Positions 22,092 through 35,890 of a DNA stretch of 64,000 nucleotides are shown piece after piece. Both the position numbers and the translations under genes were made by a program. The stretch comes from Candidatus Bathyarchaeota archaeon (GTDB lineage Archaea > Thermoproteota > Bathyarchaeia > Bathyarchaeales > Bathycorpusculaceae). The notes under the pieces are model-generated. The model ran no database searches. It saw only the letters and a program-made list of their open reading frames with translations, and was not told where the DNA came from. How positions within the stretch are numbered: the first letter of the stretch is position 1; each line of letters starts with the position of its first letter. The stretch is from contig CAWHDT010000005.1 of the NCBI GenBank assembly GCA_963828195.1, positions 640,001 through 704,000 of the forward strand. Direction: 5' to 3'.

Positions 22092-23102
22092 TTAGGCTTT
22101 TGGCTTAACTGGCGGTGCCGCTGGCTCAGACATCGGTGCCCCAATGGCTTCTCTGAGATAAGCCTTGAATGGACCCAGCTTCCCACCATAGTTACCAGAC
22201 GAAATCTTAACTATGCCGGGCACGCCGAGGGCTGCGGTTACGCCTTCTTTCATGCCTTTTTTGACTGCGTCCAAGGTTAAGCCGTTCATAACAATTTCGT
22301 AAACGCATTTGACGCCTTCTGGCACAACAGAGTCAGACACAAGTGTGCGCAGCGTTGGGCAGTACGGGTGGTTAGTTGAGGCTTTAAGTTTGTATTTAAG
22401 CGAGCCAGCCTTGCTTCCTGAACGGCAGACTCCTCCTGGAAACTGCATAATCACATCAGGAGCATTTGCGCGGATTGCATCTGCCGCCGCTTCAGCCGAT
22501 TTCAATCCTGATGGCTGATCTTCAGCAAAAATCATAAAGTTGCCGCCTGCAACCGCTTCCATAGCGCCAAAACCGTTTTCAACGATAAATTCGCCTTCCA
22601 TCACGGGAAGCTTCCAGCATTTTCTTCCTCCAACCATGGCTTTTTTCTGGTACCCATCGCCGAAGTATCGTAAGCTGTTGCCAACGTCCAATGTTCGTTT
22701 GCCGACTAACCCGTTGAAGGCTGCGGTTGTTGGACAAGTCAAAGTGCATTGACCAATACGCTGCATAAGTTGGTGCTTGAGTTCAAATCGGTCACGATTA
22801 TAAATTTGAATTAGCACACCTGGCCGCTTGTCAGGGGTCTGGTCTGCTGGAACAGTCCGCTCGATTGCTGCTTCCGCAGTTGCCTCAATTACGCTCGTGG
22901 CAAAACCCGTGGTTAAACTCGCGGCGATTAATGCCCACTTCTCGTTTTGAGCGGTAATTAAAACTCTTCCGACCCAAAGAGGAAACATTTCTGCAAAGGT
23001 ATCTTGAACCTTCACAACGTTTCCCATGGGCGATTTTACAAGGAACATTTTTTCTTTATCGTCATAGCTTTGGATTTCAACCGCGTTAGTGTTTGATGAC
23101 AT
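22092..23102 (-). CDS. ftr: Formylmethanofuran:H4MPT formyltransferase
   Basis: DTFAEMF, GFATSVI, TPDKRPG, RIGQCTLTCPT, AGGNF, SGSK, GNYGGKLG; start MSSNT at 23102. Confidence 0.92.
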   Translation of the reverse strand: MSSNTNAVEIQSYDDKEKMFLVKSPMGNVVKVQDTFAEMFPLWVGRVLITAQNEKWALIAASLTTGFATSVIEATAEAAIERTVPADQTPDKRPGVLIQIYNRDRFELKHQLMQRIGQCTLTCPTTAAFNGLVGKRTLDVGNSLRYFGDGYQKKAMVGGRKCWKLPVMEGEFIVENGFGAMEAVAGGNFMIFAEDQPSGLKSAEAAADAIRANAPDVIMQFPGGVCRSGSKAGSLKYKLKASTNHPYCPTLRTLVSDSVVPEGVKCVYEIVMNGLTLDAVKKGMKEGVTAALGVPGIVKISSGNYGGKLGPFKAYLREAIGAPMSEPAAPPVKPKA

Positions 23103-23332
23103 TGAGAGACCTTGCAGTTCAGTTGGGAATTGTATAGTTTCAATACCTTTATTATTGATATTTAAACTATTAATCCCTATCAACTTTATCTGCGTCCCTC
23201 TTAGTCGGATTATTCATTAATTAACTTTACTGAATGAATCTTAACCCTTGAATTTACTCGGTAATAACCCTAACCGCTTTAACCCACTTTTTTCCATAAG
23301 CATGGTTGACGATAGCACATACCCTTAAATTA

Positions 23333-23833
23333 TTATGAAATTTTGAAACCCCAAACATAATTAATAATATATGGATTGAAAGAAACTTGTTGCTCGGCAG
23401 TAATAATTTGAGTACTGTTACTTCCATAATCTTGAGTTATGTATATAGAGTTTGTAGAATTAAGAATATAGTAAGTGTCCATTAAATCCCAACCATCAGC
23501 AACATATACACGAACAGGAAAGGTTTGATTGTTTGTTATTATCAAACTTAGAACATTTGGTATTATCTGAATTAAAGCACTTCCATTTACAGGTGTAAGA
23601 GCATAATAAGGTGTACCATTATAGCAATTACAATATAAGAGTGTTAAGTTCTGAACAGTGAAAGGTAAGGGATAAAGTGTTACTCCATAAACTTCCTTTG
23701 CAGTTTGTGGAGTAATTGGGGTGTTTGCTGTGATTCTGATTATTGAATTATGATTTAAAGTAACTGAAATACCTGCTATTGTACTTGCAACTATAAGAAT
23801 TATCAAGATTGATATAACTATTTTTTTATTCAA
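23333..23833 (-). CDS. Membrane-anchored extracellular protein (element cargo)
   Basis: MNKKIV signal anchor; N/T/Y-rich with several N-x-S/T sequons; very AT-rich. Confidence 0.55.
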   Translation of the reverse strand: MNKKIVISILIILIVASTIAGISVTLNHNSIIRITANTPITPQTAKEVYGVTLYPLPFTVQNLTLLYCNCYNGTPYYALTPVNGSALIQIIPNVLSLIITNNQTFPVRVYVADGWDLMDTYYILNSTNSIYITQDYGSNSTQIITAEQQVSFNPYIINYVWGFKIS

Positions 23834-23950
23834 TTCTATCTCTAATATTCCAATTTACGCTTTTCAGATTTAAAACTTATCATCAATGAAAAATAGCAGT
23901 GCTACCGAGAACAAAAATACTCTCTAATAGCGGTTAGGATAACGCTAAAT

Positions 23951-24205
23951 ATGCAGCCTAACAAACTATGTTTTGGTGAGAATATGAACAAGATAGTATT
24001 AACAGAAAAAAGTAAGGGTTTTGTTATAGATAAACAAGAATGCCTTAATTGTAAAGCTGAATTCTTTTTTAAAATTAAAGACAATGCACTAATCGAGGCG
24101 AAGGGGTATGCAAAAAAGAAATCTGACAAAATTATTAGCTGTAAAATTTGTAATTCGGAATATAGTTTTGAAGTTAAAGGGTTTTCTGGTCGTGTTGGTC
24201 TCTAA
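23951..24205 (+). CDS. Small Zn-finger protein (CxxC...CxxC)
   Basis: CLNC and CKIC pairs; convergent with terL; start may be MNKIVL. Confidence 0.5.
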   Translation: MQPNKLCFGENMNKIVLTEKSKGFVIDKQECLNCKAEFFFKIKDNALIEAKGYAKKKSDKIISCKICNSEYSFEVKGFSGRVGL

Positions 24206-25677
24206 CTCCTTGAAAATAATCCTTTTTTATTTTGGTTAAGACGATTAGTGATAACAAAATTTCTATTGATAATAGGATGAATAGTGTTAGACTGCTTACC
24301 GAAATTACTCCAAGTTTCACCAGTGTTCATGTCATGAATAACTATTCTTCCACCTGTCGCTGGTTTAATAGGAAATTGCTGTTCATCCCAGAAGTTTAGC
24401 AACAAAAGAGAATCGACTAAATCGTCGTAATGCGGATTGCCTTGTTTTTTATAAGACTTCATTTCTTGAATTAAATCGTCATATTCTGATGATATCTCTA
24501 ACCCTTGACTCTCTATTACATGGCTAAGTTGTCCTTGCATGACTTCTTTGTAATAGCGTGAATTGACAGAGAAAACTTTGCTCTTACCGTAAGCTTCCGA
24601 TATGAGGTCAGACCACATAATGGGCAGACTATCAACCTTAACAAGCTGTACTTTATAGGACTTTAGAAACTCTGCTATTTCTGCAACTGCACCGTTAATC
24701 TGTTCAAATCCCCATGTCTTACGGAAGAGAACTTTAAGCTTATACTTACCGTTTTTCTCCCCTATTGTTAAGGCTAATTTGTCTCGGTCAGTGTGTCCAG
24801 TTCCACCACCGTCTATTCCAGCCCATCTAATACCTCCTTCGCTTAGTACCTGTTCTCTAATAGCTTTGTTAATTTGCTCTGTGTCCCATAGTAACTTAAT
24901 GCTGCTCTCGGATATTTCCCCGAGTACATCCCTTTTCCACTCATCTTCCGTCATTATCGTTTTCTTATTGCTTAGTTCTTCTTGACTATGCCAATCACAG
25001 TCTATTTCGCTCCACTTGAAAAGAGTAAAATTGTATTTCTTTGGGTTTTTGAGTATCTCATTAAACTTAGAATATCGAGAACTCGGAGTGCCTAAGACTA
25101 CCAGCTTAATCTTTTTACCGCTAAGATTTCCGTAAGCTGTAGATAGTGTTTCAGAAGGCATTAATTCAGCCTCATCTAAAAAGAGAATGCTTGCACTTGC
25201 TCCCCGTATGCCTTTCTCGGAAGAGGATAATAGCTGTACCTTGCTACCGTTCTTTAAAGAGTAGCCGTCTTTAGGAATAATGTTAGCTACCCCTTCCCAA
25301 CTTACATACTGTCTAAGCTCTGGGTTACTGCTAAAGATGTCTGTTATGTGTTGATAAACGTAGTTCTCTTTAGCAGAGACTAAGCACACTTGAATCTTGT
25401 TTTTGAGTGTTAAGTAAATGGCTGCTACTGCACAGCAAAGGCTCTTTCCAGTCTGTCTTCCAGCACTGATAAGAACATTCGTTAGCTCTGGGTTTTCTAA
25501 TCCCTGTAAGACCTCTACTTGTTTAGCGGTAGGAATTAGCTCTGTAATCTTAGTAAAAAATTCTGTTATGCTGAGACTGAGAAGGCTATTAACTTCTTTA
25601 GTTATTGCTAAGTTACCTTCTTTAGCCTTCAATCGGTCTCGATATTTTTTCTGCTTCTCAGCGTTAGTCATAGGCAT
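24202..25677 (-). CDS. Terminase large subunit-like ATPase-nuclease
   Basis: PTAKQ, AGRQTGKS (Walker A), IRG, LFLDEA (Walker B), LGTP, WAGIDGG and HYDDLVDS RNase H-like nuclease motifs. Confidence 0.85.
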   Translation of the reverse strand: MPMTNAEKQKKYRDRLKAKEGNLAITKEVNSLLSLSITEFFTKITELIPTAKQVEVLQGLENPELTNVLISAGRQTGKSLCCAVAAIYLTLKNKIQVCLVSAKENYVYQHITDIFSSNPELRQYVSWEGVANIIPKDGYSLKNGSKVQLLSSSEKGIRGASASILFLDEAELMPSETLSTAYGNLSGKKIKLVVLGTPSSRYSKFNEILKNPKKYNFTLFKWSEIDCDWHSQEELSNKKTIMTEDEWKRDVLGEISESSIKLLWDTEQINKAIREQVLSEGGIRWAGIDGGGTGHTDRDKLALTIGEKNGKYKLKVLFRKTWGFEQINGAVAEIAEFLKSYKVQLVKVDSLPIMWSDLISEAYGKSKVFSVNSRYYKEVMQGQLSHVIESQGLEISSEYDDLIQEMKSYKKQGNPHYDDLVDSLLLLNFWDEQQFPIKPATGGRIVIHDMNTGETWSNFGKQSNTIHPIINRNFVITNRLNQNKKGLFSRS

Positions 25678-25693
25678 TAAAGAATAACCTTCT

Positions 25694-25837
25694 TTATTTC
25701 TTGGATTCTGGGTTTGGTTGTGGTTGATTTAAAAGATTCCCATCTGCATAGAGTTTCTTGTAGAACTCAAGGTTCTTTTTACTTAATCCAATTTGGGTTA
25801 GAATCTCTTCCTTGACTTCTTCGCTGCTTTTGGTCAT
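25694..25837 (-). CDS. 47-aa hypothetical protein (not in ORF track)
   Basis: MTKSSEEVKEEILTQIGLSKKNLEFYKKLY...; ATGA-coupled to the upstream gene and directly before terL. Confidence 0.5.
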   Translation of the reverse strand: MTKSSEEVKEEILTQIGLSKKNLEFYKKLYADGNLLNQPQPNPESKK

Positions 25838-26508
25838 TTAAAAATTCCCTTTCTCTTAGTCTTAGCTTCCTTAGATGCATCCGCCCGTAACTGTTCTTCT
25901 GCATCATGTTTCGCTTTCTGTTCTGCCTCGTATATGCCTTTAGGAATCCATTGCCCTGTGTCTTCTCGTCTAACAAAACCAAAACCAGTCATTCCAAAAT
26001 CGTCTGGATATTTCTTCTTAGCTTCTGGTTGCTTTGGTTCTTGTAATGTAGCTGCATTTTTCACTGTTAGAAACTTAGCTATAATTGGGTCGTTAATTGG
26101 TGCAATCTTAAGCATGTAAACGTAATCGACTGTCTCGCCTTGAGTATCTGAGTTCATAGTTCCGACTTTTACTTTAGCTGTTGAGTAATCCTCTGACCAT
26201 TCTATATCCGAGCTTTTGTATATGCTGCCTTCGTAGAAATCAAAACGACCGTTCCCATTGTATCTTAGACTATACCGACCGTTTCCATCACTAAGACTAA
26301 TTGCAACCCCGACTGGTAATGTTGCTACTAAAAGCTCGCTGCGTGGCATTGATTGATACTCTGCTATCAGGTCGTTTAGTCGTTTTATAGCTGCCTTCTG
26401 TGCCTCTACCGAGGGATAGATAACACTCGGGTTTCCTACACTATTCTGTAGAGTTTCTATTTCTGTTAGAAGCTCTCGTTTCTTAATTTTTAATTCTTCT
26501 TGATTCAT
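25834..26508 (-). CDS. Hypothetical protein upstream of terL
   Basis: 224-aa ORF with purine-rich AAGGGG upstream; helical N-terminus, beta-rich middle, charged C-terminus. Confidence 0.6.
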   Translation of the reverse strand: MNQEELKIKKRELLTEIETLQNSVGNPSVIYPSVEAQKAAIKRLNDLIAEYQSMPRSELLVATLPVGVAISLSDGNGRYSLRYNGNGRFDFYEGSIYKSSDIEWSEDYSTAKVKVGTMNSDTQGETVDYVYMLKIAPINDPIIAKFLTVKNAATLQEPKQPEAKKKYPDDFGMTGFGFVRREDTGQWIPKGIYEAEQKAKHDAEEQLRADASKEAKTKRKGIFK

Positions 26509-26514
26509 TTTGAT

Positions 26515-26715
26515 TTATACCCCTTTTTTATTCTCACTATCATGAAATGAGAAATTGGAATTGTAAACACTCGCTCCCTGAGTAACTACTGGAAACTTTG
26601 CTAATCTCCTTAGTTCTCTGGGAGACTTTGTTTGGTTTGGACAATGCTTTCTTATAGAATAACCTCGCCTTTCCGTATCTTGTCTATACTGAAAACCTCT
26701 TAATTCCCTGCTCAA
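26515..26715 (-). CDS. Small basic hypothetical protein
   Basis: Overlap-coupled within the element operon. Confidence 0.4.
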   Translation of the reverse strand: MSRELRGFQYRQDTERRGYSIRKHCPNQTKSPRELRRLAKFPVVTQGASVYNSNFSFHDSENKKGV

Positions 26716-26927
26716 TGTGACCTACACTCCCCAGAATCACAAAGTTTCTGATAATAGTATTTTATATCCAATTTACTATTAGCGATAGGAGAAGGTAGAC
26801 CGAACTTAGTTAAGAGAGCTATATCATTCTCTAACTTTGATATGGTCTTCATTCTTTCCCGTCTAACTGGACACGTAGAAGAACAACTTTTCTCTGGAAA
26901 GGCTCTTTTCTTAATTGAGTGGGTCAT
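26712..26927 (-). CDS. Small Cys-containing hypothetical protein
   Basis: CSSTC...CDSGEC; ATGA coupling at both ends. Confidence 0.45.
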   Translation of the reverse strand: MTHSIKKRAFPEKSCSSTCPVRRERMKTISKLENDIALLTKFGLPSPIANSKLDIKYYYQKLCDSGECRSH

Positions 26928-27166
26928 TGTTCCCTACTCCAATCTCTCATTTCTGGATATACTTCGTTTCGTAACCAGACTAATCTATTAGAATTTCTTA
27001 TTTCGGTGTGCCATTGATAGGCTTCATTAATAGACTCTGCTTCCCCGTCAAATTCTAAATAACAGCCCATTGAACAGAAAAGGTCAGTCTCTAACTCTGG
27101 CTCGTAAAGTTTACCACATTGAACACATTTCCGTTTAATTACGGCTAATGAGCCTAAGTTTGCCAT
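26924..27166 (-). CDS. Treble-clef/TRASH-like Zn-finger protein
   Basis: CVQCGK...FCSMGC; start ATG overlaps the upstream stop (TAATG). Confidence 0.55.
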   Translation of the reverse strand: MANLGSLAVIKRKCVQCGKLYEPELETDLFCSMGCYLEFDGEAESINEAYQWHTEIRNSNRLVWLRNEVYPEMRDWSREQ

Positions 27167-27330
27167 TAACAAAACTTCCCCTGAGTGCTCCGTTTTCTTG
27201 GGATAGGATGGTCTCTTTTACATCTATTACCGCAACATACTTTTTTAGGGTCATAAGTTTGGAAGATTGTATCGCACCGAATACACTTCTTTGTTAAAAT
27301 AATCGATGAAATAGGAGCTAAGATTTCCAT
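27166..27330 (-). CDS. 54-aa treble-clef-like Zn-finger protein (not in ORF track)
   Basis: MEILAP...KKCIRCDTIF...VCCGNRC; same Cys pattern as the downstream gene. Confidence 0.55.
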   Translation of the reverse strand: MEILAPISSIILTKKCIRCDTIFQTYDPKKVCCGNRCKRDHPIPRKRSTQGKFC

Positions 27331-27332
27331 CA

Positions 27333-27515
27333 CTAAACACTTACTGCCTTGATTGCTGCCTTCTGTACTTTTGAAAGGTTAAGAAGCTTACAATTATCAG
27401 AAAGCATATTGTTTACTAAGTTATCTGGTAAAGTAACATTCATTTGAACTGGATGCTTGTTTCCACACTCGGGGCATACAGCATCAATAACAAAACTATG
27501 GGTCTTAGTTCCCAT
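27333..27515 (-). CDS. Small CPxCG protein
   Basis: MGTKTHSFVIDAVCPECGNKH...; coupled start (TAATG) at 27515. Confidence 0.5.
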   Translation of the reverse strand: MGTKTHSFVIDAVCPECGNKHPVQMNVTLPDNLVNNMLSDNCKLLNLSKVQKAAIKAVSV

Positions 27516-27640
27516 TAGACCACATCCCCTAACATTATTCTGCCACAATCGGCGCAGAGAAATCTTTGTTTCTTTCCCTGTCTGGTAATCTGCTTACCAG
27601 CTTTAACGATATGGCTACTGCCACATTGACATTTTTTCAT
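27515..27640 (-). CDS. IS1 InsA-like zinc ribbon, 41 aa (copy 1; not in ORF track)
   Basis: MKKCQCGSSHIVKAGKQITRQGKKQRFLCADCGRIMLGDVV; AT-rich TATA-like sequence upstream. Confidence 0.75.
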   Translation of the reverse strand: MKKCQCGSSHIVKAGKQITRQGKKQRFLCADCGRIMLGDVV

Positions 27641-27755
27641 TGTAGGCTACCCCTAATATATTGATTGATAGAAAGATATATTAAAGCTTCATGGTACTTA
27701 ATTATACCCTAAACTTAATAGTTCTGTGGTCGTAGAAAAATTAGCTATTCAGTTA

Positions 27756-27816
27756 TCCCTTTTTGCATTTTTCATACCCTTAAAATATCTACATCTTGCT
27801 ATGCAAAAAAGGGAAC
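27756..27816. repeat. Palindromic unit E1 (TCCCTTTTTGCAT...ATGCAAAAAAGGGAAC)
   Basis: Imperfect inverted arms around a TACCCTTAAAATATCTACATC core; similar to 30915-30986 and 31387-31464. Confidence 0.75.
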
Positions 27817-27826
27817 ATTCTTGTAA

Positions 27827-29287
27827 CTATGTCGATTCTTTTCTCTTTCTCGTTTGCTGTTCTCTTATCATTTTAGCTGTTTTTTCTTTTCCGAAAAAAA
27901 GGTACGAAGTGCGAGCATTATCATAATTTAAGCTCGGTTCTGAACCTTCTTTTAAAAGCATAAGCGTATCGCAGCTTGAGCACCGTTTAGGTCTACCGAT
28001 GTCTGTAGTCTGATATTCAAATTTCTCGTAGCAGTTGGAACAGTGACCATAACCAAAACCAAAATCAAGCCTCTTAACTAAACAATCAATAGTTATTTCT
28101 GGTACGAAACCAACATTTGCTTTATTACTGGTTTTGGCTTTTCTTTTAGATTCTTCACTTAGAATAAGAGTATTTAAGTCTTCCATAACCCTATTTAGAC
28201 CGATAGTGTAAAGGTCGGGGTTCTTTGTCTTCATATCTTCCATTTTCTTTCTAAACCGTTCCACTGCATCTTTACCGTAATAATATTCTATCGCCTTTCT
28301 GGTAATTTTTTCTGCTATTGCTAAAGTGTCTCGGGATATGAATAACGCATCTGCTTCGCATTTCACTGCACCGTATTTTTCTATAAAATCAGCATGCTTG
28401 AGTTTCTTGGTATACTTTAGTTCTGGATTATCTCTAAATTTGTTTACTTCCTTCATTAATTCAATGTCTTCGACTAATGGAAGATTGTATCTTTTTATAT
28501 CCTCTATGTTTAGACCAACTCGTTTAATTACTAATTTCTCTGGGTCATATCTCGTACTTGGTTTTATTTCCTCTAAGTATTCTTTGAAATTATCTGACAT
28601 CTGCCGACCAACAATATCGAAATCGTAAAAAAGTAGTAGTACGGGAGTGAGTTTATTCTCTTCGGCTTTCTGTGCCAACTTTGCTATGTGGTCTAATATT
28701 AACAGTGGCGCTCTTCCTTTAGTGCTTACGATTGGTATATGGTACTCTTGGCAAATAGGCGCTAATACTTCTTTAAGGTCTCCTTTTTCAACAGACATCA
28801 TAAGATAATACTTTTCGTCTTTCCAGAATCCAGTATTAGATTCAGCTATGTTATTCATTTTATCGGTAATGAGTTCTTGAATTTCCATAAGTCCTTCTGT
28901 TGGGTCTGTTTCTTCGATTATGCCTTTAAAATGTCGAGTCTCGTCTTGGTCTTCTTTAACAAAGTCCATAGGTAACAGGTTTGCTTTTCTACAAACTGCA
29001 ATAGCAGCACCACATTTTTTAAATTCTGCTTCTGTTTTAGCTATTTTTCCCTTAGATTCTAATAAATAACCCCAACCTCTAACATTACGCTTGATACCTG
29101 TTTCTGCATCAAAAGCCTTAAGGTCGTTAGCAAAGCGCCAATACCTTTCCCTATTATCGGGGTCACTAATGCTTCCTGTTGGAATATACCCTTTCAGTTC
29201 TTTAGGTTTTGTATAGACAGCATTGTATTCTTTCCCGAACATCTTAGTCGTAGCACTTTCAAACACTTTTTTGATAGCGTCATTCAT
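27827..29287 (-). CDS. Type IIB topoisomerase A-subunit-like (Mini-A/Topo VIII-A-like) Toprim protein
   Basis: VRGWGY winged-helix Tyr motif, SVEKGD, STKG, YDFDIVG (DxD), RVGLN, EADAL; C-terminal CxxC..CxxC. Confidence 0.72.
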   Translation of the reverse strand: MNDAIKKVFESATTKMFGKEYNAVYTKPKELKGYIPTGSISDPDNRERYWRFANDLKAFDAETGIKRNVRGWGYLLESKGKIAKTEAEFKKCGAAIAVCRKANLLPMDFVKEDQDETRHFKGIIEETDPTEGLMEIQELITDKMNNIAESNTGFWKDEKYYLMMSVEKGDLKEVLAPICQEYHIPIVSTKGRAPLLILDHIAKLAQKAEENKLTPVLLLFYDFDIVGRQMSDNFKEYLEEIKPSTRYDPEKLVIKRVGLNIEDIKRYNLPLVEDIELMKEVNKFRDNPELKYTKKLKHADFIEKYGAVKCEADALFISRDTLAIAEKITRKAIEYYYGKDAVERFRKKMEDMKTKNPDLYTIGLNRVMEDLNTLILSEESKRKAKTSNKANVGFVPEITIDCLVKRLDFGFGYGHCSNCYEKFEYQTTDIGRPKRCSSCDTLMLLKEGSEPSLNYDNARTSYLFFGKEKTAKMIREQQTRKRKEST

Positions 29288-30621
29288 TGGAGAACACCTT
29301 TAGCGTAATCATCGTACTTTACTGCTGGACACATGAAATGATAGATAACAGTCATTGGCGCAGTAGAATACTTCTTTGTAGAAAGACGGGTTTCTATTGG
29401 ACAGCATTTTAAGAAGACTTGTTGGGGTGCTGACATGTGATTAACACATAGATATAGCTGTAAGCCTTTGTTGTCTTCTGGTCTAAGAATCTTAGCGATT
29501 TCAAGGGCAAAGGGATATTCTACGTGTGATAGGTCTTTACAATCTTTATGTTCTTCCATTGATACCCTACAATCATAAGCCACTCCAATATTGAGCGAAT
29601 ACCCGTTATCGCATAATGTCCAGCCATTCTTCTCGCATCGTTTTTCAAATGCTTCTTTACCAACGATACCCAACACTGATTTAACAGTGCGTGAGTCCTC
29701 AATGGGTTTAGTTAACACTTTCATATTTGCATAGAGTTTTTCTATTCCTTCTTTGGATACTTTTGTTAGTAAGGTGTCTGCACCGTTTTTATAAAGTGAG
29801 TCTTGTAAGAAGGGATAGGTAATTTCATGACTTTGAAAACCCCTGAACATTGATGTTATGAACCTTTTAAGGGTTAAATCTGGACATGAAGCTGCATAAT
29901 CCAAAAATAACTCTGTAAACTCTTCGAGCTTGTACCAGAGAGCACTCGTTTCTTGTATTGGGTCTTTTCCGTCTGTAATTCTGTCGTAGACCGTTTCTTT
30001 ACCCATAAACTCATAGGTAATCTTTTTTGTTGGATTAACTAAGGCTGTAGCTTCAATGCTTCTCTCTATTTCCTTAGTGTCTAAATAATTTTGAACTGGA
30101 AACTTTACGGATATTACCGTTCCCCTGTCTATCCTTTTTGAAATTTGGATACTCGGGGGATTCATTCTTACATTGTCATGTGATAACGTTATAGTAAACT
30201 TGGAAGCTCCCGATTCTATGATGATAGACGGTATAGGCAGATTCTTAAGTTCAGCCGATATGTAGGAAAACCCAAAGATGCACTTTAATGCGTTACCTAT
30301 TCGACCTCTGCTAAGGCGCATTAATCCCCTGTTGGAGCTTGCTTTGTTATCAAAATCAAATATTTGGTCTATGACCTTTGGGGTTAACTTTGTTTCCCCA
30401 TCATTGGTTACGGTTACGGTATAGAAGTCTTTATCGCTGGTAATTGATACTCTTACTTTAACGGAGCCTTTTACATCTAAACCGTTAGCTAACATTTCCC
30501 TTACAGCAAAGTTTATCGCATGGTCTAAATCTGTTCCCGTTCTCAATCGTAGCTGTTCAGGTTCTATAAAATCTAAACTTCTCGGCAGACCCTTACGGAC
30601 TTCATTTATTAAAGATGTCAT
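29284..30621 (-). CDS. Type IIB topoisomerase B-subunit-like GHKL ATPase (Topo VIII-like)
   Basis: REMLANGLD (N box), VTNDG, SRGRIGNALK, GTVISV; C-terminal PFALE and DYAKG resemble the transducer; ATGA-coupled to the A-like gene. Start reassigned to MTSLINE. Confidence 0.75.
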   Translation of the reverse strand: MTSLINEVRKGLPRSLDFIEPEQLRLRTGTDLDHAINFAVREMLANGLDVKGSVKVRVSITSDKDFYTVTVTNDGETKLTPKVIDQIFDFDNKASSNRGLMRLSRGRIGNALKCIFGFSYISAELKNLPIPSIIIESGASKFTITLSHDNVRMNPPSIQISKRIDRGTVISVKFPVQNYLDTKEIERSIEATALVNPTKKITYEFMGKETVYDRITDGKDPIQETSALWYKLEEFTELFLDYAASCPDLTLKRFITSMFRGFQSHEITYPFLQDSLYKNGADTLLTKVSKEGIEKLYANMKVLTKPIEDSRTVKSVLGIVGKEAFEKRCEKNGWTLCDNGYSLNIGVAYDCRVSMEEHKDCKDLSHVEYPFALEIAKILRPEDNKGLQLYLCVNHMSAPQQVFLKCCPIETRLSTKKYSTAPMTVIYHFMCPAVKYDDYAKGVLQ

Positions 30622-30626
30622 GCTTC

Positions 30627-30773
30627 TCACGATTTGTTTTCTTCGATTGTTGGGTTTAGCACTCTGCCACATTCTTGGCATAGATACCTCTGGATTTTAC
30701 CCTTACGTGTAGTTCTGAATCCGAGCTTCACGATATGGGTACTTCCACAGATACATTTAGCTGGTTTACTCAT
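30627..30773 (-). CDS. IS1 InsA-like zinc ribbon, 48 aa (copy 2; not in ORF track)
   Basis: MSKPAKCICGSTHIVKLGFRTTRKGKIQRYLCQECGRVLNPTIEENKS; paralog of 27515-27640. Confidence 0.75.
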   Translation of the reverse strand: MSKPAKCICGSTHIVKLGFRTTRKGKIQRYLCQECGRVLNPTIEENKS

Positions 30774-30914
30774 TCTTCGTACTCTTCTACACTATAAATA
30801 GGTATATCTATAGATATAAGGATTATGGGTAATTAAGATATAATATATGGTCAAAGTGGTTCAAAATGAAATTCCCTATTATGCTTTAGTTCATGCTGTC
30901 AGCACCTTAACCTC

Positions 30915-30986
30915 TTCCCCTTTTTTGTATTTATTATACCTCTAAAAGATGTAGACCAGCCACTACAAAAAAGGGAACTTTCCCAT
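30915..30986. repeat. Palindromic unit E2
   Basis: Perfect 12-bp IR CCCTTTTTTGTA (30918-30929) / TACAAAAAAGGG (30964-30975), followed by AACTTTCCCAT. Confidence 0.8.
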
Positions 30987-31386
30987 TAGATTGGAAACAC
31001 CTGAAACACCTTACTTCTACAGGTAAACAAGCTAATCCAATAAGACATTAATTATCTATTAGTTTTTTAATTCTAACAGACAGAGAAACTCTATATCTAA
31101 TAATTTACTAAATTAAGAGACATAGAAACACCTTACTGGATGTTTATTGTCCAGCTATCTTACTACAGGTTGAGGTCGTTATTAGTTCTTAATATCCTGA
31201 AGCCTTGATGAAGGGGAACTAACCATTTAGCCACTTTATAACCGAAGTAACCTTACTGGTTCGGATAGACTTTTTTCCAATGCGATTCACCAATAAATAA
31301 ACAGCTAACGCATTGGGAGAATTAGCTGCCTACCTACTGATTACTAACCACTTTCTCGGGGAGCATAAAAAGTTTTATGGTCTTTG

Positions 31387-31464
31387 CCCTTTCTGCATTT
31401 TCTACGCTAAAAACATCTACATCGTAAACTTGATTGCCTAAGCAAAAAAGGGGAACTTACCCAT
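31387..31464. repeat. Palindromic unit E3
   Basis: CCCTTTCTGCATTTT...TAAAAACATCTACATC...GCAAAAAAGGGGAACTTACCCAT; aligns with E1 and E2. Confidence 0.75.
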
Positions 31465-31893
31465 CTGATAATAAAGTGAGGTAGTTGTTTAATTTTATAT
31501 TTTTTATAGTGTGCAGTATTCCTTACTGCACTTGGCGTTTCAAGCATTAATGAAGCATATTTCTAAGTTCTCCGTGCTGACTCTTGATACTCCTAAATGC
31601 TAAGAGATTGAGTATTAGAATTAGATTAGATGTTTATTGATGCCTGAGTGGTGGCATGGAGAACCATAGTAAAAGACCATGCTTGGAGACTAATAGAAAG
31701 ACCGTACCCACAATAAGAGGAATGTTAGCCTTAGAAACTTGATAGTTTAACGTTAAAAACTGTACTTGTTTCTTTAATGTATTAGAGCAATAGCGGAGTG
31801 TAAACGAGCTGGCGCATAGCCCTATTGCATAGTACAATTACTAAAAGCATGGGAAAATAATGATTGTCGGTAACAGTTTAGTTACTTGAAAGG

Positions 31894-33042
31894 TTACTCT
31901 TCTTTCAGTATATCGTCTGCTTGTTTGTCTCTCTCTTCTTGGTCATGAATTATCTCTTCCAGTGTGTAATCTTTAGCTAACAATCCACGTTCTTTGAAAG
32001 CTGAGAGCAGAGAATTAAAAGCATATTTTAGAGTAGATACTTCATTCTGTAAATCATCAAGTTTCTTAACCTGTTCCTTATTGACACCAGAAGTACCTTT
32101 GAAGTCTATGTTTAAGTAATCATTGTAAACAGTAGGGTACTTTTCTTCTATCTCACTCTGTAGGGTTTGAAGATAGGTAGAGTCTGAGATGTTAATTGAC
32201 TTACCCATTAGATACTTTATTTGAAACTCGTTAAAGCCACATCTTGATAGACGAGACATTAGCCATTTCCGTATATTGTGGAATCTCAAGCTCCCTGTAG
32301 TCTTTAGACCTGACTGCATCGCTAAACGGTAAAGCATCTTTTGAACTCCATCTTGGGTTATCGGGAACAGCCTTGAATCATTGTCTTTTCTAATGGCTAA
32401 GTATTTTGTCAGCCACTCGATAGCTAAGGGATTAAGAACACAAAAACGTGCTACTCCTGTCTTCTGCCGTGTATTGGCAAAGAAGATAAACTTCTCACTG
32501 TTTTGGGTAGCATGAGCTAATCTTTTTGTTATTACTTCTTTGTCTTGTTCTAAGAACGCTGATATTTCCCAACCTTCACTAACTGCAGTTGCTAAGAGAG
32601 CTTTCTCAAAAGTATCTCCTACCTCGAAAAGTAGCTTTAAGTCACCATTAGTAAAAACATGGCTGTTGTTATCAGCCTCTAAATTGAGTAGTTGTCCTTT
32701 TCTAAAAGTGACTACCTTATCAATCGTTAAGAGATAAGAACGCATGGCTGTAATTATGCTTAAGATTCCATTGTTCTTGAATCCCTTTTTTGTTTGCTCT
32801 CCTTGAAAAGTCAAAAAGAGCTTTTTGATTTCTTTACTATCCATCTCTTTTAAATTGGCTATAGAGACATTGGTTGCTTGTAGAAACCTTACTAATCTGC
32901 TTGCATATTGATGTCTTGTACTCTTTTTGTTAAACTCACTCAGCCATGACTCTATCGAAGGGTCACTATTCAAGATTTTTAGCTGTTCATCCGTAAAGTT
33001 AGACCAATCACTGTCTAAAACTCTATCTTTAAATTCTGACAT
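31894..33042 (-). CDS. Tyrosine recombinase/integrase
   Basis: STRHQY N-domain, RQKTG (catalytic K), FHNIRK (HxxR), YLMGK and DSTYL (catalytic Y); C-terminal coiled coil. Confidence 0.9.
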   Translation of the reverse strand: MSEFKDRVLDSDWSNFTDEQLKILNSDPSIESWLSEFNKKSTRHQYASRLVRFLQATNVSIANLKEMDSKEIKKLFLTFQGEQTKKGFKNNGILSIITAMRSYLLTIDKVVTFRKGQLLNLEADNNSHVFTNGDLKLLFEVGDTFEKALLATAVSEGWEISAFLEQDKEVITKRLAHATQNSEKFIFFANTRQKTGVARFCVLNPLAIEWLTKYLAIRKDNDSRLFPITQDGVQKMLYRLAMQSGLKTTGSLRFHNIRKWLMSRLSRCGFNEFQIKYLMGKSINISDSTYLQTLQSEIEEKYPTVYNDYLNIDFKGTSGVNKEQVKKLDDLQNEVSTLKYAFNSLLSAFKERGLLAKDYTLEEIIHDQEERDKQADDILKEE

Positions 33043-33052
33043 TTCTCAGACT

Positions 33053-33123
33053 CTCAGTATTAGTATAATGGCAGACCGATTAATAAAGTTAGCGAGATTC
33101 TAATACTGATTATCTCAGTACTG
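33053..33123. promoter_or_regulatory. Inverted-repeat operator upstream of integrase
   Basis: TCAGTATTAG (33054-33063) / CTAATACTGA (33100-33109) is a perfect 10-bp IR around a TATA-like sequence; third half-site CTCAGTA at 33114. Confidence 0.6.
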
Positions 33124-33248
33124 TATAATTTAAGAGTTTTCATGAGCAACCAACGTTTTCTAAATTTCTAAGGCTATTCAAAACGCAAACGGGGGGAACA
33201 TCAAAAACCAGCTTCCGAAGGGAAATATCCTTTGAAAAGTCTAAGCCG

Positions 33249-34387: not shown

Positions 34388-35890
34388 TTACCGCCCTAAC
34401 AGTTTAGACACATCTTCAGAAGTGACTATTCCAAGAACTTTCTTTTCTATATCAATCACTGGCAGCGCCGAAATGTTGTGCTGAGCCATCCGTCTTGAAG
34501 CGATCTCAAGCGGCTCATCAGGTTTAGCAGTCACAACGTTATGCGTTTCGATGTCCGCTAACGCTTTTTTGCCTTCAGCCATAGCCCGAGTGACATCCCA
34601 AGACGTAACTATCCCCAGCAGCTTGCCAGCGTCGTCAACGACGACAATGTGGTTTACTGATTTGGTGACGATTCGCTCGGCAATGGCGCGTATTTCTTCG
34701 TTTTCGGTGCATGTGACGGCTGGATGCATAACATTCATGACGAACGGGATTTCCTCTGTTTGCCGCATAGGCTTAAAAACGCTGTCTGTGGGCAACCGCT
34801 CAACAGGCGAGGTTAAATAAAACGAGCCTTCCTCAATCCACGATTTTAATGTCTGGGAAACCTTCTTAGCCATCTTTATGCTGGATAAGCTGCTGACCCT
34901 GACTTTCTTGTCATTAATCGTTATTGAGCCGGATTTCAACTCTTTATAGCTCACTTGCCTCAGCTTCGGGCGGTCTCTACGCGGCACGCTGTAATCAACC
35001 ACATCGGTCATGATTTCGCTGTCCCGAATCGCTGTCTTCTTTGCTAAACCCTCATTCAAAATAGGAATAGGAATGCCTAAGCCTACATACATTGAGGTGC
35101 CATAACCCGTGAAGGCAGCGCCCTGCAGGAATTCAGGCGACATCTTCTTGGCGTCGCCTTTCACCATCAAGGTGCCGTTTAGGTTTTTGGGGCTATGCTG
35201 CGTTCCCTCGCCAATAACGTAGCCCTGTGCGCCCCCAAGAAAAATTCTGGAGCCCATGCCGATGGTTTCGTAGTCAGGGTCGTTCATAAGCGGGTTTAAT
35301 TCGCCTGCGCCAGAGAACGTGGCGTTACGCAGTCTGGGCAAGAGCTTGCTCATGTAAGTGTAAATAGTTTCGTCGCTTGTGTTTACTGCGCAGTTGTAGC
35401 GTTGGTAGCAGTTGCGGAAGTTAATTAGGTAAAACTGGTTTAAATCGTCTTTTGTCAATGAGGTTTTAAGCTGAGTTCTCGGGTAACAATCGGTTCCATA
35501 TGCTTCAGCGCGAAGCTCAACCTCTTTGCCCGCCACGAGATCTTGAATAACGTGTCCGCCGCCGTATTCGAAAGGCTGCTTCTCAGACATGTTAGTTGCT
35601 CCTATAAACAGGTCTACTGCCGCACCTGGATGGCAAACTTGAACATCATTCAGCCATGCATGGTCAATCTTTATCGGCGGATCAGAGTGCCCCAAGTTAA
35701 CCACTGCGCCAGATGAGCACATAGCGCCGAAAGTTCCTGTTGTAACCACATCAACTTCTTTAAAGGCAACTTCAACGCCGCTGCTTTCCACAAGTTTTTT
35801 CATTTCTTCAGCGGTTAAAACCTGAACATCGCCCTTGCGAATTTTTTCGTTAATCTCTTCTAAACTGCGGGTTTTAGTCGTTTTAGACAA
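34388..35890 (-). CDS. DUF39-CBS homocysteine synthesis protein (aspartate-semialdehyde sulfurtransferase, MA1821/MJ0100-like)
   Basis: EINEKI, VDVVTTGTFGAMCSSG, YGGGHVI, GTDCYPR, NDP; C-terminal CBS pair. Confidence 0.9.
   Translation of the reverse strand: MSKTTKTRSLEEINEKIRKGDVQVLTAEEMKKLVESSGVEVAFKEVDVVTTGTFGAMCSSGAVVNLGHSDPPIKIDHAWLNDVQVCHPGAAVDLFIGATNMSEKQPFEYGGGHVIQDLVAGKEVELRAEAYGTDCYPRTQLKTSLTKDDLNQFYLINFRNCYQRYNCAVNTSDETIYTYMSKLLPRLRNATFSGAGELNPLMNDPDYETIGMGSRIFLGGAQGYVIGEGTQHSPKNLNGTLMVKGDAKKMSPEFLQGAAFTGYGTSMYVGLGIPIPILNEGLAKKTAIRDSEIMTDVVDYSVPRRDRPKLRQVSYKELKSGSITINDKKVRVSSLSSIKMAKKVSQTLKSWIEEGSFYLTSPVERLPTDSVFKPMRQTEEIPFVMNVMHPAVTCTENEEIRAIAERIVTKSVNHIVVVDDAGKLLGIVTSWDVTRAMAEGKKALADIETHNVVTAKPDEPLEIASRRMAQHNISALPVIDIEKKVLGIVTSEDVSKLLGR

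What the first reader, a model, noticed from the sequence alone, without database searches (positions are those of the whole stretch)
30900..31890. Structured, quasi-periodic ~1-kb non-coding array directly downstream of a tyrosine integrase
Seen: in an otherwise tightly packed element, ~1 kb lacks a credible ORF. AAGGG(G)AACTWW(C)CCAT recurs with its GGGAAC at 30973, 31214 and 31451 (spacings 241 and 237). CCTTACT recurs at 31009, 31131, 31251 and 31521 (first spacings 122 and 120). Three of the CCTTACT copies sit in or beside the loop of a hairpin whose stem sequence differs each time: ACCTG..CAGGT, CCGAA-GTAA..TTAC-TGG-TTCGG, and the perfect GTGCAGTA-ttcct-TACTGCAC. GAAACACCTTACT occurs exactly twice (31003, 31125), each followed by CTACAGGT. 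Inference: conserved short motifs with different but still pairing stems suggest selection on structure, i.e. a multi-unit ncRNA/ssDNA array co-oriented with the integrase. It could be guide/scaffold RNAs, packaging RNA or folded recombination sites. I recognise no CRISPR or other named array here.
Basis: partly seen in the sequence, partly recalled or inferred. Interest (0 to 1): 0.85.

Follow-up and report, generated by a model that had tools for sequence, protein, structure and literature searches.

The report
Structured non-coding RNA region in archaeal element
The gene-free kilobase after the integrase of a 10-kb virus-like element in a Bathyarchaeia genome looks like a control region that encodes folded RNA, read in the same direction as the integrase, rather than an array of guide RNAs or folded recombination sites.

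Summary
The gap (30774-31893) lies inside a ~10-kb low-GC integrated element (~23135-33127, core TGTATA). Its attP side is upstream of the integrase, not in the gap.

A sister element (L001) has a homologous 1.3-kb gap with conserved blocks. A third element in the same genus (L168), with an unrelated integrase, shares a ~70-160-nt core.

Evidence for selected RNA structure on the integrase-sense (-) strand:
- Two 7-bp and 4-bp helices, 33 of 33 cells paired, 3 compensatory pairs.
- A long hairpin replaced by a different sequence at the same place (z -4.1 and -3.7). It depends on G-U pairs and is lost with DNA parameters or on the other strand.
- An 8-9-bp hairpin with 2 double changes.

Not supported:
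- The ~240-nt "array": its motif is absent from L001.
- A link to the integrase family: the gap matches 1 of 57 other related integrase loci.
- Complementarity to the att sites.
- ssDNA folding.

No Rfam family matches, no RNA-seq run holds the stretch, and the RNA ends and function are inferred. My best guess is a regulatory or immunity-type ncRNA gene between the integrase and the early operon. It is a new, rare motif: 3 of 120 genomes in the genus.

The parts
23135..33127 (.). Integrated ~10-kb low-GC virus-like element. The junctions are host ..GGGAATTGTATA|GTTTCAATACC.. on the left and ..CAGTACTGTATA|ATTTAAGAG.. on the right, with shared core TGTATA. Borders are good to a few bases.
   Evidence: GC is 0.32-0.39 here against ~0.45 in the flanks. 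Same-genus genome G077 has an empty site, with the two flanks 107 bp apart. A contig of run X3 runs from ~23140 straight into AAGAGTTTTCAT, the right flank.
31894..33042 (-). Tyrosine integrase, 382 aa, at the right end of the element and transcribed inward.
   Evidence: Pfam Phage_integrase E 4.9e-6 (26.9 bits, just under the 27.1 cut-off). PHROG integrase families, E 2e-7. Relatives found.
30774..31893 (-). The 1.1-kb gene-free gap. It is homologous to L001:9075-10239, with patchy conserved blocks.
   Evidence: 65% identity over 830 nt plus two further pieces; alignment A1. No conserved reading frame longer than ~25 codons.
31870..31885 (-). Hairpin GTAAC-TAAACT-GTTAC, 8 nt after the integrase stop codon and followed by a T-rich stretch. 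It lies inside a ~65-nt block almost identical in L001. It is probably the end of the integrase transcript (inferred).
   Evidence: Alignment A1, columns 55-120; folds.
31487..31564 (-). Conserved block B. It holds a 29-nt stretch identical in L001 (31536-31564), hairpin H2 (31511-31531) and an A/T-rich TATA-like tract (31487-31509).
   Evidence: H2 is GTGCAGTA/TACTGCAC in the window and ATCCAGTAT/ATACTGGAT in L001, so two pairs changed on both sides. z is -4.04 and -3.47. The TATA-like 8-mers read on the + strand are conserved in both elements. H2 could equally be a palindromic operator.
31443..31467 (-). On the - strand it reads ATGGGTAAGTTCCCCTTTTTTG, with a T6 at 31444-31449. It is a candidate oligo-T terminator and the 5' arm of a 13-nt perfect long-range complement to 30915-30927.
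   Evidence: I5; duplex -23.7 kcal/mol. L001 has a T5 at the matching place (9477) but not the motif.
31364..31371 (-). Conserved CTTTTTATG, a candidate TATA box for the ncRNA (inferred). The start would fall near 31341.
   Evidence: It is conserved in L001 at 9557. Host genes show TATA-like hexamers such as TTTATA, TTAAAT and TTTTAT about 40-45 nt before start codons (930 genes). L168 has TTTATATT at 9654, ~130 nt before its core motif.
31277..31341 (-). Long hairpin H4 (31289-31341; 18 pairs in its main stem, 5 of them G-U). It is interleaved with a conserved alternative pairing, CCAATGCG (31309-31316) with CGCATTGG (31277-31284).
   Evidence: As RNA on the - strand: -27.9 kcal/mol, z -4.13. 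On the + strand: -13.2 with a different fold. L001 has a 15-bp hairpin of unrelated sequence between the same conserved anchors: -24.4, z -3.73. As DNA the window hairpin is not formed (-7.4, z -1.8).
31172..31240 (-). Core motif shared by three elements. P1 pairs 31216-31222 with 31182-31188. P2 pairs 31211-31214 with 31203-31206. A 14-nt loop, CUUCAGGAUAYUAA (31189-31202), is invariant but for one C/U position.
   Evidence: Alignment A4: 11 pairs, 33 of 33 cells paired, and 3 pairs changed on both sides. Slid controls pair 24-52% of cells. RNAalifold finds the same helices. Model R1 scores 94, 92 and 86 bits.
31003..31136 (-). Small hairpins lie beside them.
   Evidence: L001 also has two exact copies, at 9800 and 9867. 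L168 has none.
30915..30989 (-). It is a candidate terminator or insulator module ~145-210 nt upstream of the Zn-ribbon gene.
   Evidence: I8; D1: 73% identical to 27757-27820, which sits at the same distance before the second Zn-ribbon gene. L001 has a T5 at the matching place, 10018.
30792..30818 (-). Promoter region of the downstream operon. On the - strand it holds TATA-like CTATTTATAG and the 16-bp palindrome TATATCTATAGATATA.
   Evidence: Conserved block D in A1; sequence.
30627..30773 (-). 48-aa Zn-ribbon protein, the first gene after the gap. A paralogue lies at 27515-27640.
   Evidence: NCBIfam IS1/IS1595 N-terminal zinc-binding domain, E 5e-8 and 2e-7. 81% and 83% identical copies in L001.
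27757..27820 (-). Second copy of the inverted-repeat/T6 module, lying between the topoisomerase-like gene and the second Zn-ribbon gene.

Best explanation
The gap is the non-coding control region of a small integrated virus-like element. It lies between the integrase and the first downstream operon (Zn-ribbon protein plus a topoisomerase-VI-like pair).

It encodes at least one structured RNA, transcribed in the same direction as the integrase and the other genes (the window's - strand). I place this RNA roughly between 31341 and the T6 at 30972, about 370 nt. If the flanking complementary arms at 31443-55 and 30915-27 belong to it, it is up to ~560 nt.

From 5' to 3' the RNA contains:
- a long G-U-rich hairpin that competes with a conserved alternative pairing;
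- a small variable hairpin;
- a conserved core (7-bp P1, 4-bp P2 and a 14-nt nearly invariant loop);
- two GTAAGGTGTTTC sites.

Oligo-T tracts before and after would end the integrase transcript and the RNA.

Inferred function: a regulatory, immunity-type RNA or leader that controls expression of the early operon. It probably works with a host factor, because the core is the only thing shared with a third element that has no protein in common. The palindromes and GTAAGGTGTTTC repeats around it are probably DNA sites for the element's own small Zn-ribbon proteins.

Shown: conservation, covariation, strand-specific folding, position in the element. Inferred: transcription, RNA ends, function.
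For: 1. Homologous gap in the sister element L001, which has the same gene order: 65% identity over 830 nt, in sharply conserved blocks.

2. Core motif in three elements. All 33 of 33 cells pair, 3 of 11 pairs changed on both sides and 1 on one side. Slid controls pair 24-52% of cells, and 23 of 500 shuffles reach the observed values. RNAalifold finds the same helices unprompted.

3. Hairpin H4. Unrelated stem sequences lie between identical anchors in the window and L001, with z -4.13 and -3.73.

4. Strand and chemistry. H4 has 5 G-U pairs among the 18 of its main stem (my count from the fold). The opposite strand gives -13.2 against -27.9 kcal/mol. With DNA parameters the hairpin disappears. 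A further 7-bp helix next to the core has 3 wobble pairs in the window and 2 in L001.

5. H2 keeps pairing through two double changes.

6. Folding of the gap's - strand is beyond the shuffles and beyond 40 control windows.

7. T-runs lie at matching places in the window (31449, 31371, 30972) and L001 (9477, 9557, 10018).

8. In all three elements the core lies on the integrase-sense strand, in a ~1.1-1.3-kb ORF-poor stretch between the integrase side and a run of small genes.

9. No frame-specific conservation. Translated matches of similar strength appear in several frames and on both strands.
Against: - No transcript evidence. No RNA run holds the stretch, so start, end and even transcription are inferred.
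- Only three sequences, all from one genus, so the covariation statistics are thin: 23 of 500 shuffles match them.
- The proposed RNA contains or abuts T5-T6 tracts that may themselves terminate archaeal transcription.
- H2 is a perfect DNA palindrome beside a TATA-like tract and may be an operator rather than an RNA hairpin.
- The core overlaps a short reading frame kept in all three: MVSSPSSRLQDIKN*, MARSPSLRLQDTKNGIRPQPQVI* and MASSPRHRLQDIKN* (my reading of A4).
- The invariant loop has no pairing target above a shuffled-loop null in any of the three elements.
- No function can be tied to any known RNA class: Rfam gives 0 matches at gathering level and only E 2.8 and 3.8 below it.
Confidence: 0.55

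Rival explanations
1. A double-stranded DNA control region or replication origin. The A/T-rich tract, the repeated GTAAGGTGTTTC sites and the palindromes would be binding sites for the element's proteins or for host replication proteins. The hairpins would be by-products of palindromic sites.
For: - GTAAGGTGTTTC is present twice in both the window and L001.
- There are perfect palindromes at 31511-31531 and 30803-30818, and an A/T-rich tract at 31487-31509.
- No replication initiator was recognised among the element's ORFs scanned against Pfam, PHROGs and NCBIfam. An origin served by host proteins therefore has to lie somewhere.
- Two small DNA-binding-type Zn-ribbon proteins are encoded just downstream.
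Against: - H4 is not a DNA palindrome. 5 of the 18 positions in its main stem pair only as G-U, and it forms on one strand only and not with DNA parameters.
- P1 and P2 covary across an element (L168) that shares no protein with the window's element. tblastn with 15 proteins gave no hit at E 0.01.
- The helix next to the core needs two to three wobble pairs.
- This rival can be true for H2 and the repeats at the same time as the RNA reading.
Confidence: 0.2
2. Coding or formerly coding sequence. The conserved core would be a 14-codon micro-gene (M..SP..RLQDIKN), or the gap would be the wreck of a longer gene.
For: - An ATG-led frame of 14, 23 and 14 codons is kept in the three elements (A4).
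- The best translated match of any stop-free piece of the gap is this frame: 80% over 25 residues to L001 and 63% over 19 to L168.
- The 20-mer GGCTTCAGGATAYTAAGAAC also occurs, in frame as ARLQDIKN, inside what looks like a thymidylate synthase ThyX gene of one viral contig. ThyX is my reading from recalled motifs, not a search result.
Against: - Of the variable codons only one change is synonymous. The others change the residue (V/A, S/R, S/R, S/L/H, I/T), and the stop codon is lost in L001.
- Each of these changes is explained by pairing in P1 and P2.
- I see no purine-rich ribosome-binding site of the host type (GGAG ~13 nt before starts) in front of it.
- The ThyX-like protein gives no collinear similarity to any of the three gaps beyond those 7-8 residues (best E 0.45). 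By my rough arithmetic, a single exact 20-mer in a collection of that size is within chance.
- The 67-aa ORF is not conserved.
Confidence: 0.08
3. One reading: an array of guide or scaffold RNAs, or of folded single-stranded recombination sites, working with the adjacent tyrosine integrase. A variant is an invertible segment flanked by inverted repeats, flipped by the integrase.
For: - It is adjacent to and co-oriented with the integrase in all three elements.
- Stems vary while still pairing.
- The ~515-nt (window) and ~545-nt (L001) central segments are bracketed by complementary arms of different sequence: 13 of 13 nt, and 35 nt at 86%.
Against: - The gap is found beside 1 of 57 other related integrase loci. 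Model R1 hits none of the others (best E 2.9).
- The third element's integrase is unrelated.
- The att core (TGTATA) and attP lie at the element ends, 1.2 kb away on the other side of the integrase gene.
- Matches between the gap and 91-nt att regions are 9 and 11 nt, within the null.
- The window's main hairpin does not form as DNA.
- The repeated motif is missing from L001.
- No strand-changing joints were seen, but only low-depth contigs could be laid, so that is not evidence either way.
Confidence: 0.05

Closest known systems
Regulatory RNAs of temperate phages and satellites (satellite P4 CI RNA, P1/P7 c4 RNA); from my own knowledge, not checked in a paper here
   Same: A non-coding stretch between the integration or lysogeny side and the early operon of an integrated element. 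It has a structured RNA in the sense orientation, with repeated short motifs and terminator-like tracts around it.
   Different: Those RNAs act by pairing with repeated sites in the leader. Here the nearly invariant loop has no target above a shuffled null. There is no sequence or Rfam relation. The host is an archaeon, where termination and initiation signals differ.
Large structured RNAs of unknown function carried by prophages (GOLLD, ROOL); recalled. Both are Rfam families
   Same: A several-hundred-nucleotide, multi-hairpin RNA candidate inside an integrated virus-like element. It is conserved in structure more than in sequence and is shared by elements with different gene sets.
   Different: No match to any of the 4227 Rfam models at gathering score. 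The candidate is smaller and archaeal, and only three copies are known.
Integron attC sites and CTX-type folded single-stranded att sites
   Same: Variable stems with kept pairing, next to a tyrosine recombinase.
   Different: The element integrates as a unit through a TGTATA core at its ends. There are no cassettes. The main hairpin needs G-U pairs and is not stable as DNA.
Bridge or seek RNAs of IS110/IS1111 elements
   Same: A structured non-coding RNA beside a recombinase gene at the edge of a mobile element.
   Different: Those recombinases are DEDD-type, from my own knowledge, whereas this one is a tyrosine integrase. There is no complementarity to target or element ends beyond chance. 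The RNA does not travel with the integrase family.
fim-type invertible promoter switches
   Same: A recombinase gene followed by a ~0.5-kb segment bracketed by inverted repeats that may hold promoters.
   Different: The same short repeat also occurs as local modules at 30915-30989 and 27757-27820. The segment has the same orientation in the window and L001. No inversion could be tested.

Membership tests
Any Rfam 15 RNA family | Score at or above the family's gathering threshold | tested here: not met
   0 matches in the whole window. With permissive filters on 30600-32000 there were only snoR16 (20 bits against 45, E 3.8) and mir-87 (16 bits against 49, E 2.8).
Integron (attC array) | Sites that fold as single-stranded DNA hairpins | tested here: not met
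   With DNA parameters the window's H4 is not formed (-7.4 kcal/mol, z -1.8). The core region has z +0.36 and -0.25 on the two strands.
Integron (attC array) | Gene cassettes between successive sites, with the integrase next to attI | tested here: not met
   No conserved ORF lies between the motif copies. The integrase serves a 10-kb element with ends at ~23135 and ~33127.
IS110/IS1111 bridge or seek RNA | RNA loops complementary to the target and to the element's ends | tested here: not met
   The longest shared words with the two att regions are 9 and 11 nt. In the null, 163 of 288 random segments reach 9 and 18 of 288 reach 11.
IS110/IS1111 bridge or seek RNA | DEDD-type recombinase | tested here: not met
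   The adjacent protein matches the tyrosine-type Phage_integrase and PHROG integrase families.
P4 CI-like or P1 c4-like immunity RNA | RNA segment complementary to repeated sites in the operon leader | tested here: inconclusive
   The invariant loop's best duplexes (-14.3 to -16.9 kcal/mol) equal the shuffled-loop null (means -15.3 to -16.1). The T-run arms do pair with 30915-27, but that is not conserved in L001.
Archaeal chromosome- or plasmid-type origin (ORB/iterons plus initiator gene) | Initiator gene (Orc1/Cdc6, Rep, primase) next to repeated boxes flanking an A/T-rich stretch | tested here: inconclusive
   No initiator family was found in the ORFs scanned. Two conserved 12-nt repeats and an A/T-rich tract exist. 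ORB consensus was not tested.
Invertible promoter switch | Both orientations of the IR-flanked segment present in a population | not testable with these tools
   Only assembled contigs at depth 2-6 could be laid.
Structured ncRNA (general) | Compensatory changes that keep helices across homologues | tested here: met
   P1 and P2: 3 pairs with double changes and 33 of 33 cells paired. H2: 2 double changes. H4: whole stem replaced, with both versions stable.
Structured ncRNA (general) | Transcript detected | not testable with these tools
   No listed run is on record as RNA.

The most novel reading that the evidence does not exclude
A new class of 0.4-0.6-kb structured RNA gene carried by small integrating, satellite-like elements of Bathyarchaeia. 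A long-range helix closes it. It is built around a 45-nt core with a nearly invariant 14-nt loop, which elements with no shared proteins keep. It would act through a host or helper-virus machine, for example by priming replication of elements that have no initiator of their own, or by marking them for a helper's packaging or processing apparatus. This would make it an archaeal counterpart of the large prophage RNAs of bacteria.
Probability: 0.18. Interest if true: 0.7.

Novelty: new variant of a known kind. Interest (0 to 1): 0.5.

Why it matters
Non-coding RNAs of archaeal mobile elements are almost unexplored, and Bathyarchaeia are uncultivated, so sequence is the only handle. This locus gives a concrete, testable candidate. 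It has a defined element with exact ends, a sister element for comparison, a core motif with a working covariance model (R1), and a strand prediction.

If transcribed, it would be a regulatory RNA of an archaeal integrating element that elements with different integrases and gene sets share. That would point to a host-directed function.

If not, the region still maps the control architecture (terminator modules, palindromes, repeated sites, Zn-ribbon regulators) of a new small element. That element carries a terminase and a topoisomerase-VI-like pair.

Tried and rejected
**Searches for more homologues**
- tRNA scan of the window: 0 genes, so there is no tRNA-linked att site.
- Viral contigs: the integrase and terminase queries and a first DNA pattern found nothing.
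- Phylum-wide DNA search with the gap, 401 genomes. Apart from the window itself, the only matches were a 27-nt second match in G000 and 20-54-nt matches in 18 other genomes, at E 8.6e-4 to 8.6e-3. I treat these as chance.
- Class-wide search for the 21-mer, 401 genomes, up to 3 mismatches. 38 genomes matched, against a similar scatter in the reversed-pattern control. Only the window and G694 matched exactly. I read the flanks of the 28 other loci fetched and none has the motif. 9 further places, all with 3 mismatches, got no locus and were not read.
- The phage collection gave only a 46-nt A/T-rich match to Campylobacter phages.
- Terminase relatives: 58 of 401 class genomes match, but at 28% identity or less, so they give no further sister elements.

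**Gap length after related integrases**
- I measured 34 of the 57 other related loci. I left out 23 that were truncated or short, chosen by eye from the tables.
- 7 of the 34 have 600 nt or more before the next ORF of 80 aa or more. A long gap is therefore not a family trait.

**Expression and reads**
- No RNA holder was listed for the stretch.
- Laying four DNA runs gave no variants in the gap, no circle junction and no strand-changing joint, at depth 2-6.

**Other ideas tested**
- Guide-RNA idea: the att complementarity test was negative.
- Trans-target idea: the loop duplex scan was at the null.
- Box C/D and k-turn readings of the core: I checked by eye. The UGAUGA on the + strand is not conserved in L001 or L168.
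- ThyX-fragment idea: rejected.
- The sigma-70 promoter and terminator scan does not apply to archaea and was at shuffle level.

**Literature**
- Two full-text searches and term look-ups in PMC4158269 and PMC10848311 (passages only, 0 hits) found no description of such an RNA or element.
- I read only search listings and abstracts of the other papers. Supplementary files were not opened and could list such elements.

**Tool problems**
- MAFFT put the two H4 hairpins out of register, so RNAalifold on the pair did not show H4. I rely on separate folds instead.
Full report
**Setting**

The window is contig C5:640001-704000 of a 2.83-Mb, 96%-complete genome. Relatives of its integrase sit in Bathyarchaeota MAGs. 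The flanking genes are archaeal C1-pathway and sulfur genes: formylmethanofuran-H4MPT formyltransferase at 22092-23183 and HcyBio at 34388-35890.

GC drops from ~0.45 to 0.32-0.39 between 23 and 33 kb. In same-genus genome G077 the two flanks are 107 bp apart. Comparing the junctions gives ...TTGTATA|GTTTCAATACC on the left and ...ACTGTATA|ATTTAAGAG on the right, against ...TTGTGTAATTTAAGAG in the empty site. A contig of run X3 runs from ~23140 straight into the right flank.

The insert is therefore an integrated element of ~10 kb (~23135-33127) with a TGTATA core. Other genus members carry 1.3-3.5 kb between the same flanks, so the site is a hot spot.

Apart from one 84-aa ORF on the + strand (see the last section), the element's genes are on the - strand:
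- integrase (31894-33042);
- the gap;
- a 48-aa Zn-ribbon protein;
- a distant topoisomerase-VI-B-like ATPase (NCBIfam E 2e-10, far below the cut-off);
- a protein matching PHROG "DNA topoisomerase" (E 3e-44);
- a second Zn-ribbon protein;
- several small ORFs;
- a 224-aa protein;
- a terminase large subunit (PHROG E 3e-25);
- a 166-aa protein.

The integrase is transcribed inward from the right end, so attP lies upstream of it and not in the gap.

**The observation**

The 17-mer occurs three times, and only here (0.07 expected). CCTTACT is not over-represented in the window as a whole, but four copies cluster in 520 nt.

The gap has no ORF above 67 aa. It folds better than shuffles on the - strand in two sub-regions, with z of -3.45 and -3.63. 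None of 40 control windows elsewhere reached -2.8. The periodicity, however, rests on three copies.

**Related sequences**

I collected 6 genome loci and 51 metagenome loci with related integrases (34-91% identity). Only L001, in a Bathyarchaeota MAG, shares DNA with the gap, so 1 of 57.

L001 is a sister element. It has the same order of integrase, 1.3-kb gap, Zn-ribbon gene, second Zn-ribbon gene, small ORFs, 224-aa protein (72% identical) and terminase (93.6% identical over residues 72-491). A ParB-like 549-aa protein replaces the topoisomerase-like pair. It sits at a different chromosomal place.

The two gaps align in sharply conserved blocks separated by diverged stretches:
- block A, just after the integrase stop;
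- a CTTTTTATG..CCGAGAAAG block;
- a ~160-nt block C;
- the promoter and start of the Zn-ribbon gene.

Copy 3 falls in a deletion, copy 1 is diverged, and only copy 2 survives, because it is part of block C. The CCGAA..TTCGG hairpin is not conserved either.

Searching the genomes behind L001-L003 turned up a third copy of block C. It lies in another low-GC element of the genome that also holds L003 (locus L168). That element carries a 295-aa integrase with no meaningful similarity to the window's, an AbiV-type HEPN protein, a membrane protein, a 1.1-kb ORF-poor stretch with the motif on the integrase-sense strand, then small ORFs and an HNH nuclease. None of 15 window-element proteins hits it.

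A covariance model of the 69-nt core (R1) finds exactly these three copies in the 120 genomes of the genus. It finds nothing else in 59 sources. Class- and phylum-level samples added nothing.

**Evidence for structure**

- *Core.* In the three-way alignment of the core, a 7-bp helix P1 and a 4-bp helix P2 pair in 33 of 33 cells. Three pairs changed on both sides and one on one side. Sliding the partner by 1-3 columns drops pairing to 24-52%. RNAalifold predicts the same helices. Between P2 and the 3' arm of P1 lies a 14-nt loop, CUUCAGGAUAYUAA, invariant but for the one C/U position.
- *Long hairpin H4.* Upstream, between the conserved anchors CCGAGAAAG.GGTTA, CCAATGC and GCATTGG, the window has a long hairpin H4 whose main stem is CAGTAGGTAGGCAGCTAA/TTAGCTGTTTATTTATTG (18 pairs) and L001 has a 15-bp hairpin of unrelated sequence. 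Both are far more stable than shuffles (z -4.13 and -3.73). The conserved CCAATGC(G)/(C)GCATTGG pair is an alternative to this hairpin in both elements.
- *Helix next to the core.* A 7-bp helix beside the core (GGUUACU/AGUGGCU) has three wobble pairs in the window and two in L001.
- *Bracketing arms.* The central ~515-nt (window) and ~545-nt (L001) segments are bracketed by complementary arms of different sequence. These are 13 of 13 nt at -23.7 kcal/mol, and 35 nt at 86% and -43.9 kcal/mol. In L001 each arm is also a local hairpin, and in the window the arm sequence recurs in local modules, so I rate this as suggestive only.

**RNA or DNA, and which strand**

The window's H4 has five G-U pairs. 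On the + strand the region folds differently, at -13.2 instead of -27.9 kcal/mol. With DNA parameters the hairpin is not formed at all. L001 shows the same direction of asymmetry (-24.4 against -17.9).

This points to RNA of the integrase-sense strand. It argues against cruciform DNA or folded single-stranded DNA sites.

**Proposed anatomy (inferred)**

T-runs lie at matching places in the window (31449, 31371, 30972) and L001 (9477, 9557, 10018). Host genes show TATA-like hexamers 40-45 nt before their starts and GGAG about 13 nt before (930 genes).

I read the pieces as follows:
- The first T-run is the end of integrase transcription.
- CTTTTTATG is a possible TATA box.
- The last T-run is the end of an RNA of ~370 nt (window), ~430 nt (L001) or ~320 nt (L168: TTTATATT at 9654, T5 at 10000).
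- The core begins ~100-130 nt from the predicted start in all three.

An alternative start after the A/T-rich tract of block B would include the bracketing arms.

It occurs again at 27757-27820 before the second Zn-ribbon gene. Its middle copy is the 5' half of the core.

**Function**

Nothing ties the RNA to the integrase. The invariant loop has no pairing target above the null.

Two things shape my guess. The RNA sits between the integrase side and the early operon. Its core is shared by elements with no common proteins. My best guess is therefore a regulatory, immunity-type RNA or leader that works with a host factor. The palindromes and GTAAGGTGTTTC repeats would be DNA sites for the element's own Zn-ribbon proteins.

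The main rival is a DNA-level origin or operator region, and it may be true in part. A 14-codon frame overlapping the core is a minor rival. Its variable codons change the residue, and its stop is lost in L001, while every change keeps P1 and P2 paired.

An exact 20-mer match inside what looks like a viral thymidylate synthase ThyX gene (my reading from recalled motifs) does not extend beyond 7-8 residues. I take it as chance.

**Comparison and novelty**

No Rfam family matches, and the two literature searches found no description. The closest known kinds are the regulatory RNAs of temperate phages and satellites, and the large prophage RNAs of unknown function. It is not a member of any of them.

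I rate it a new variant of a known kind. It is real as a conserved structured region, unproven as a transcript, and rare (3 of 120 genomes of one genus).

Noticed in passing
window 27827-30681 (-): The element carries a gene pair that looks like a very distant type IIB topoisomerase. The 465-aa protein matches topoisomerase VI subunit B (NCBIfam E 2e-10, 40 bits against a 274 cut-off; Pfam HATPase_c E 3e-4). The 486-aa protein matches PHROG 6247 'DNA topoisomerase' (E 3e-44) and, by eye, has VEK.. and DxD motifs of a Toprim fold. In the sister element a ParB-like 549-aa protein takes their place.
   Followed up: partly
window 23135-33127; L001 7974-16500: This is a 10-kb integrating element with a terminase large subunit (93.6% identical over residues 72-491 between the two elements) but no recognisable capsid, portal or replication initiator. 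It may be a satellite-like element or a very small provirus. In L001 the terminase is read in two frames near residue 72-83, which is either a frameshift or an assembly error.
   Followed up: partly
window 23100-23140 and 33120-33135: The intergenic site between the formyltransferase gene and the 234-aa gene is an insertion hot spot in this genus. The flanks are 107 bp apart in G077, but 1.3-1.7 kb apart in G751, G744 and G753, and 3.5 kb apart in G745 and G624. G748 and the metagenome contig L031 carry a 91%-identical integrase N-terminus at the same flank.
   Followed up: partly
window 30627-30773 and 27515-27640 (-): Two paralogous 41-48-aa Zn-ribbon proteins (IS1/IS1595-type N-terminal zinc-binding domain) each open an operon. 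Each is preceded at ~145-210 nt by the same 64-nt inverted-repeat/T6 module. They are likely small DNA-binding regulators.
   Followed up: partly
L168 7131-14300 (G758/G694 contig C13): This is a second, different low-GC element in a genome of the same genus. It carries a 295-aa integrase, an AbiV-type HEPN protein, a membrane protein, a 1.1-kb ORF-poor stretch with the shared RNA core, small ORFs and an HNH nuclease.
   Followed up: partly
L172 4220-4240 (-), viral contig: The invariant 20-mer of the core occurs exactly once in the viral contig collection. It sits in frame (ARLQDIKN) inside a 208-aa protein that carries RHR..S..S.RY-type thymidylate synthase ThyX motifs (my reading from recalled motifs). 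There is no further similarity to the gap, so it is probably chance.
   Followed up: yes
L001 9507-9541 and 10087-10121: Two ~32-nt near-palindromic hairpins, 79% identical to each other, bracket the sister element's central gap segment. Together they can form a 35-nt duplex of -43.9 kcal/mol. The window has a different pair of arms at the same places.
   Followed up: partly
window 23951-24205 (+): This is the only + strand ORF of the element (84 aa, two CxxC pairs, weak Zn-ribbon matches). It lies between the terminase gene and the last gene.
   Followed up: no
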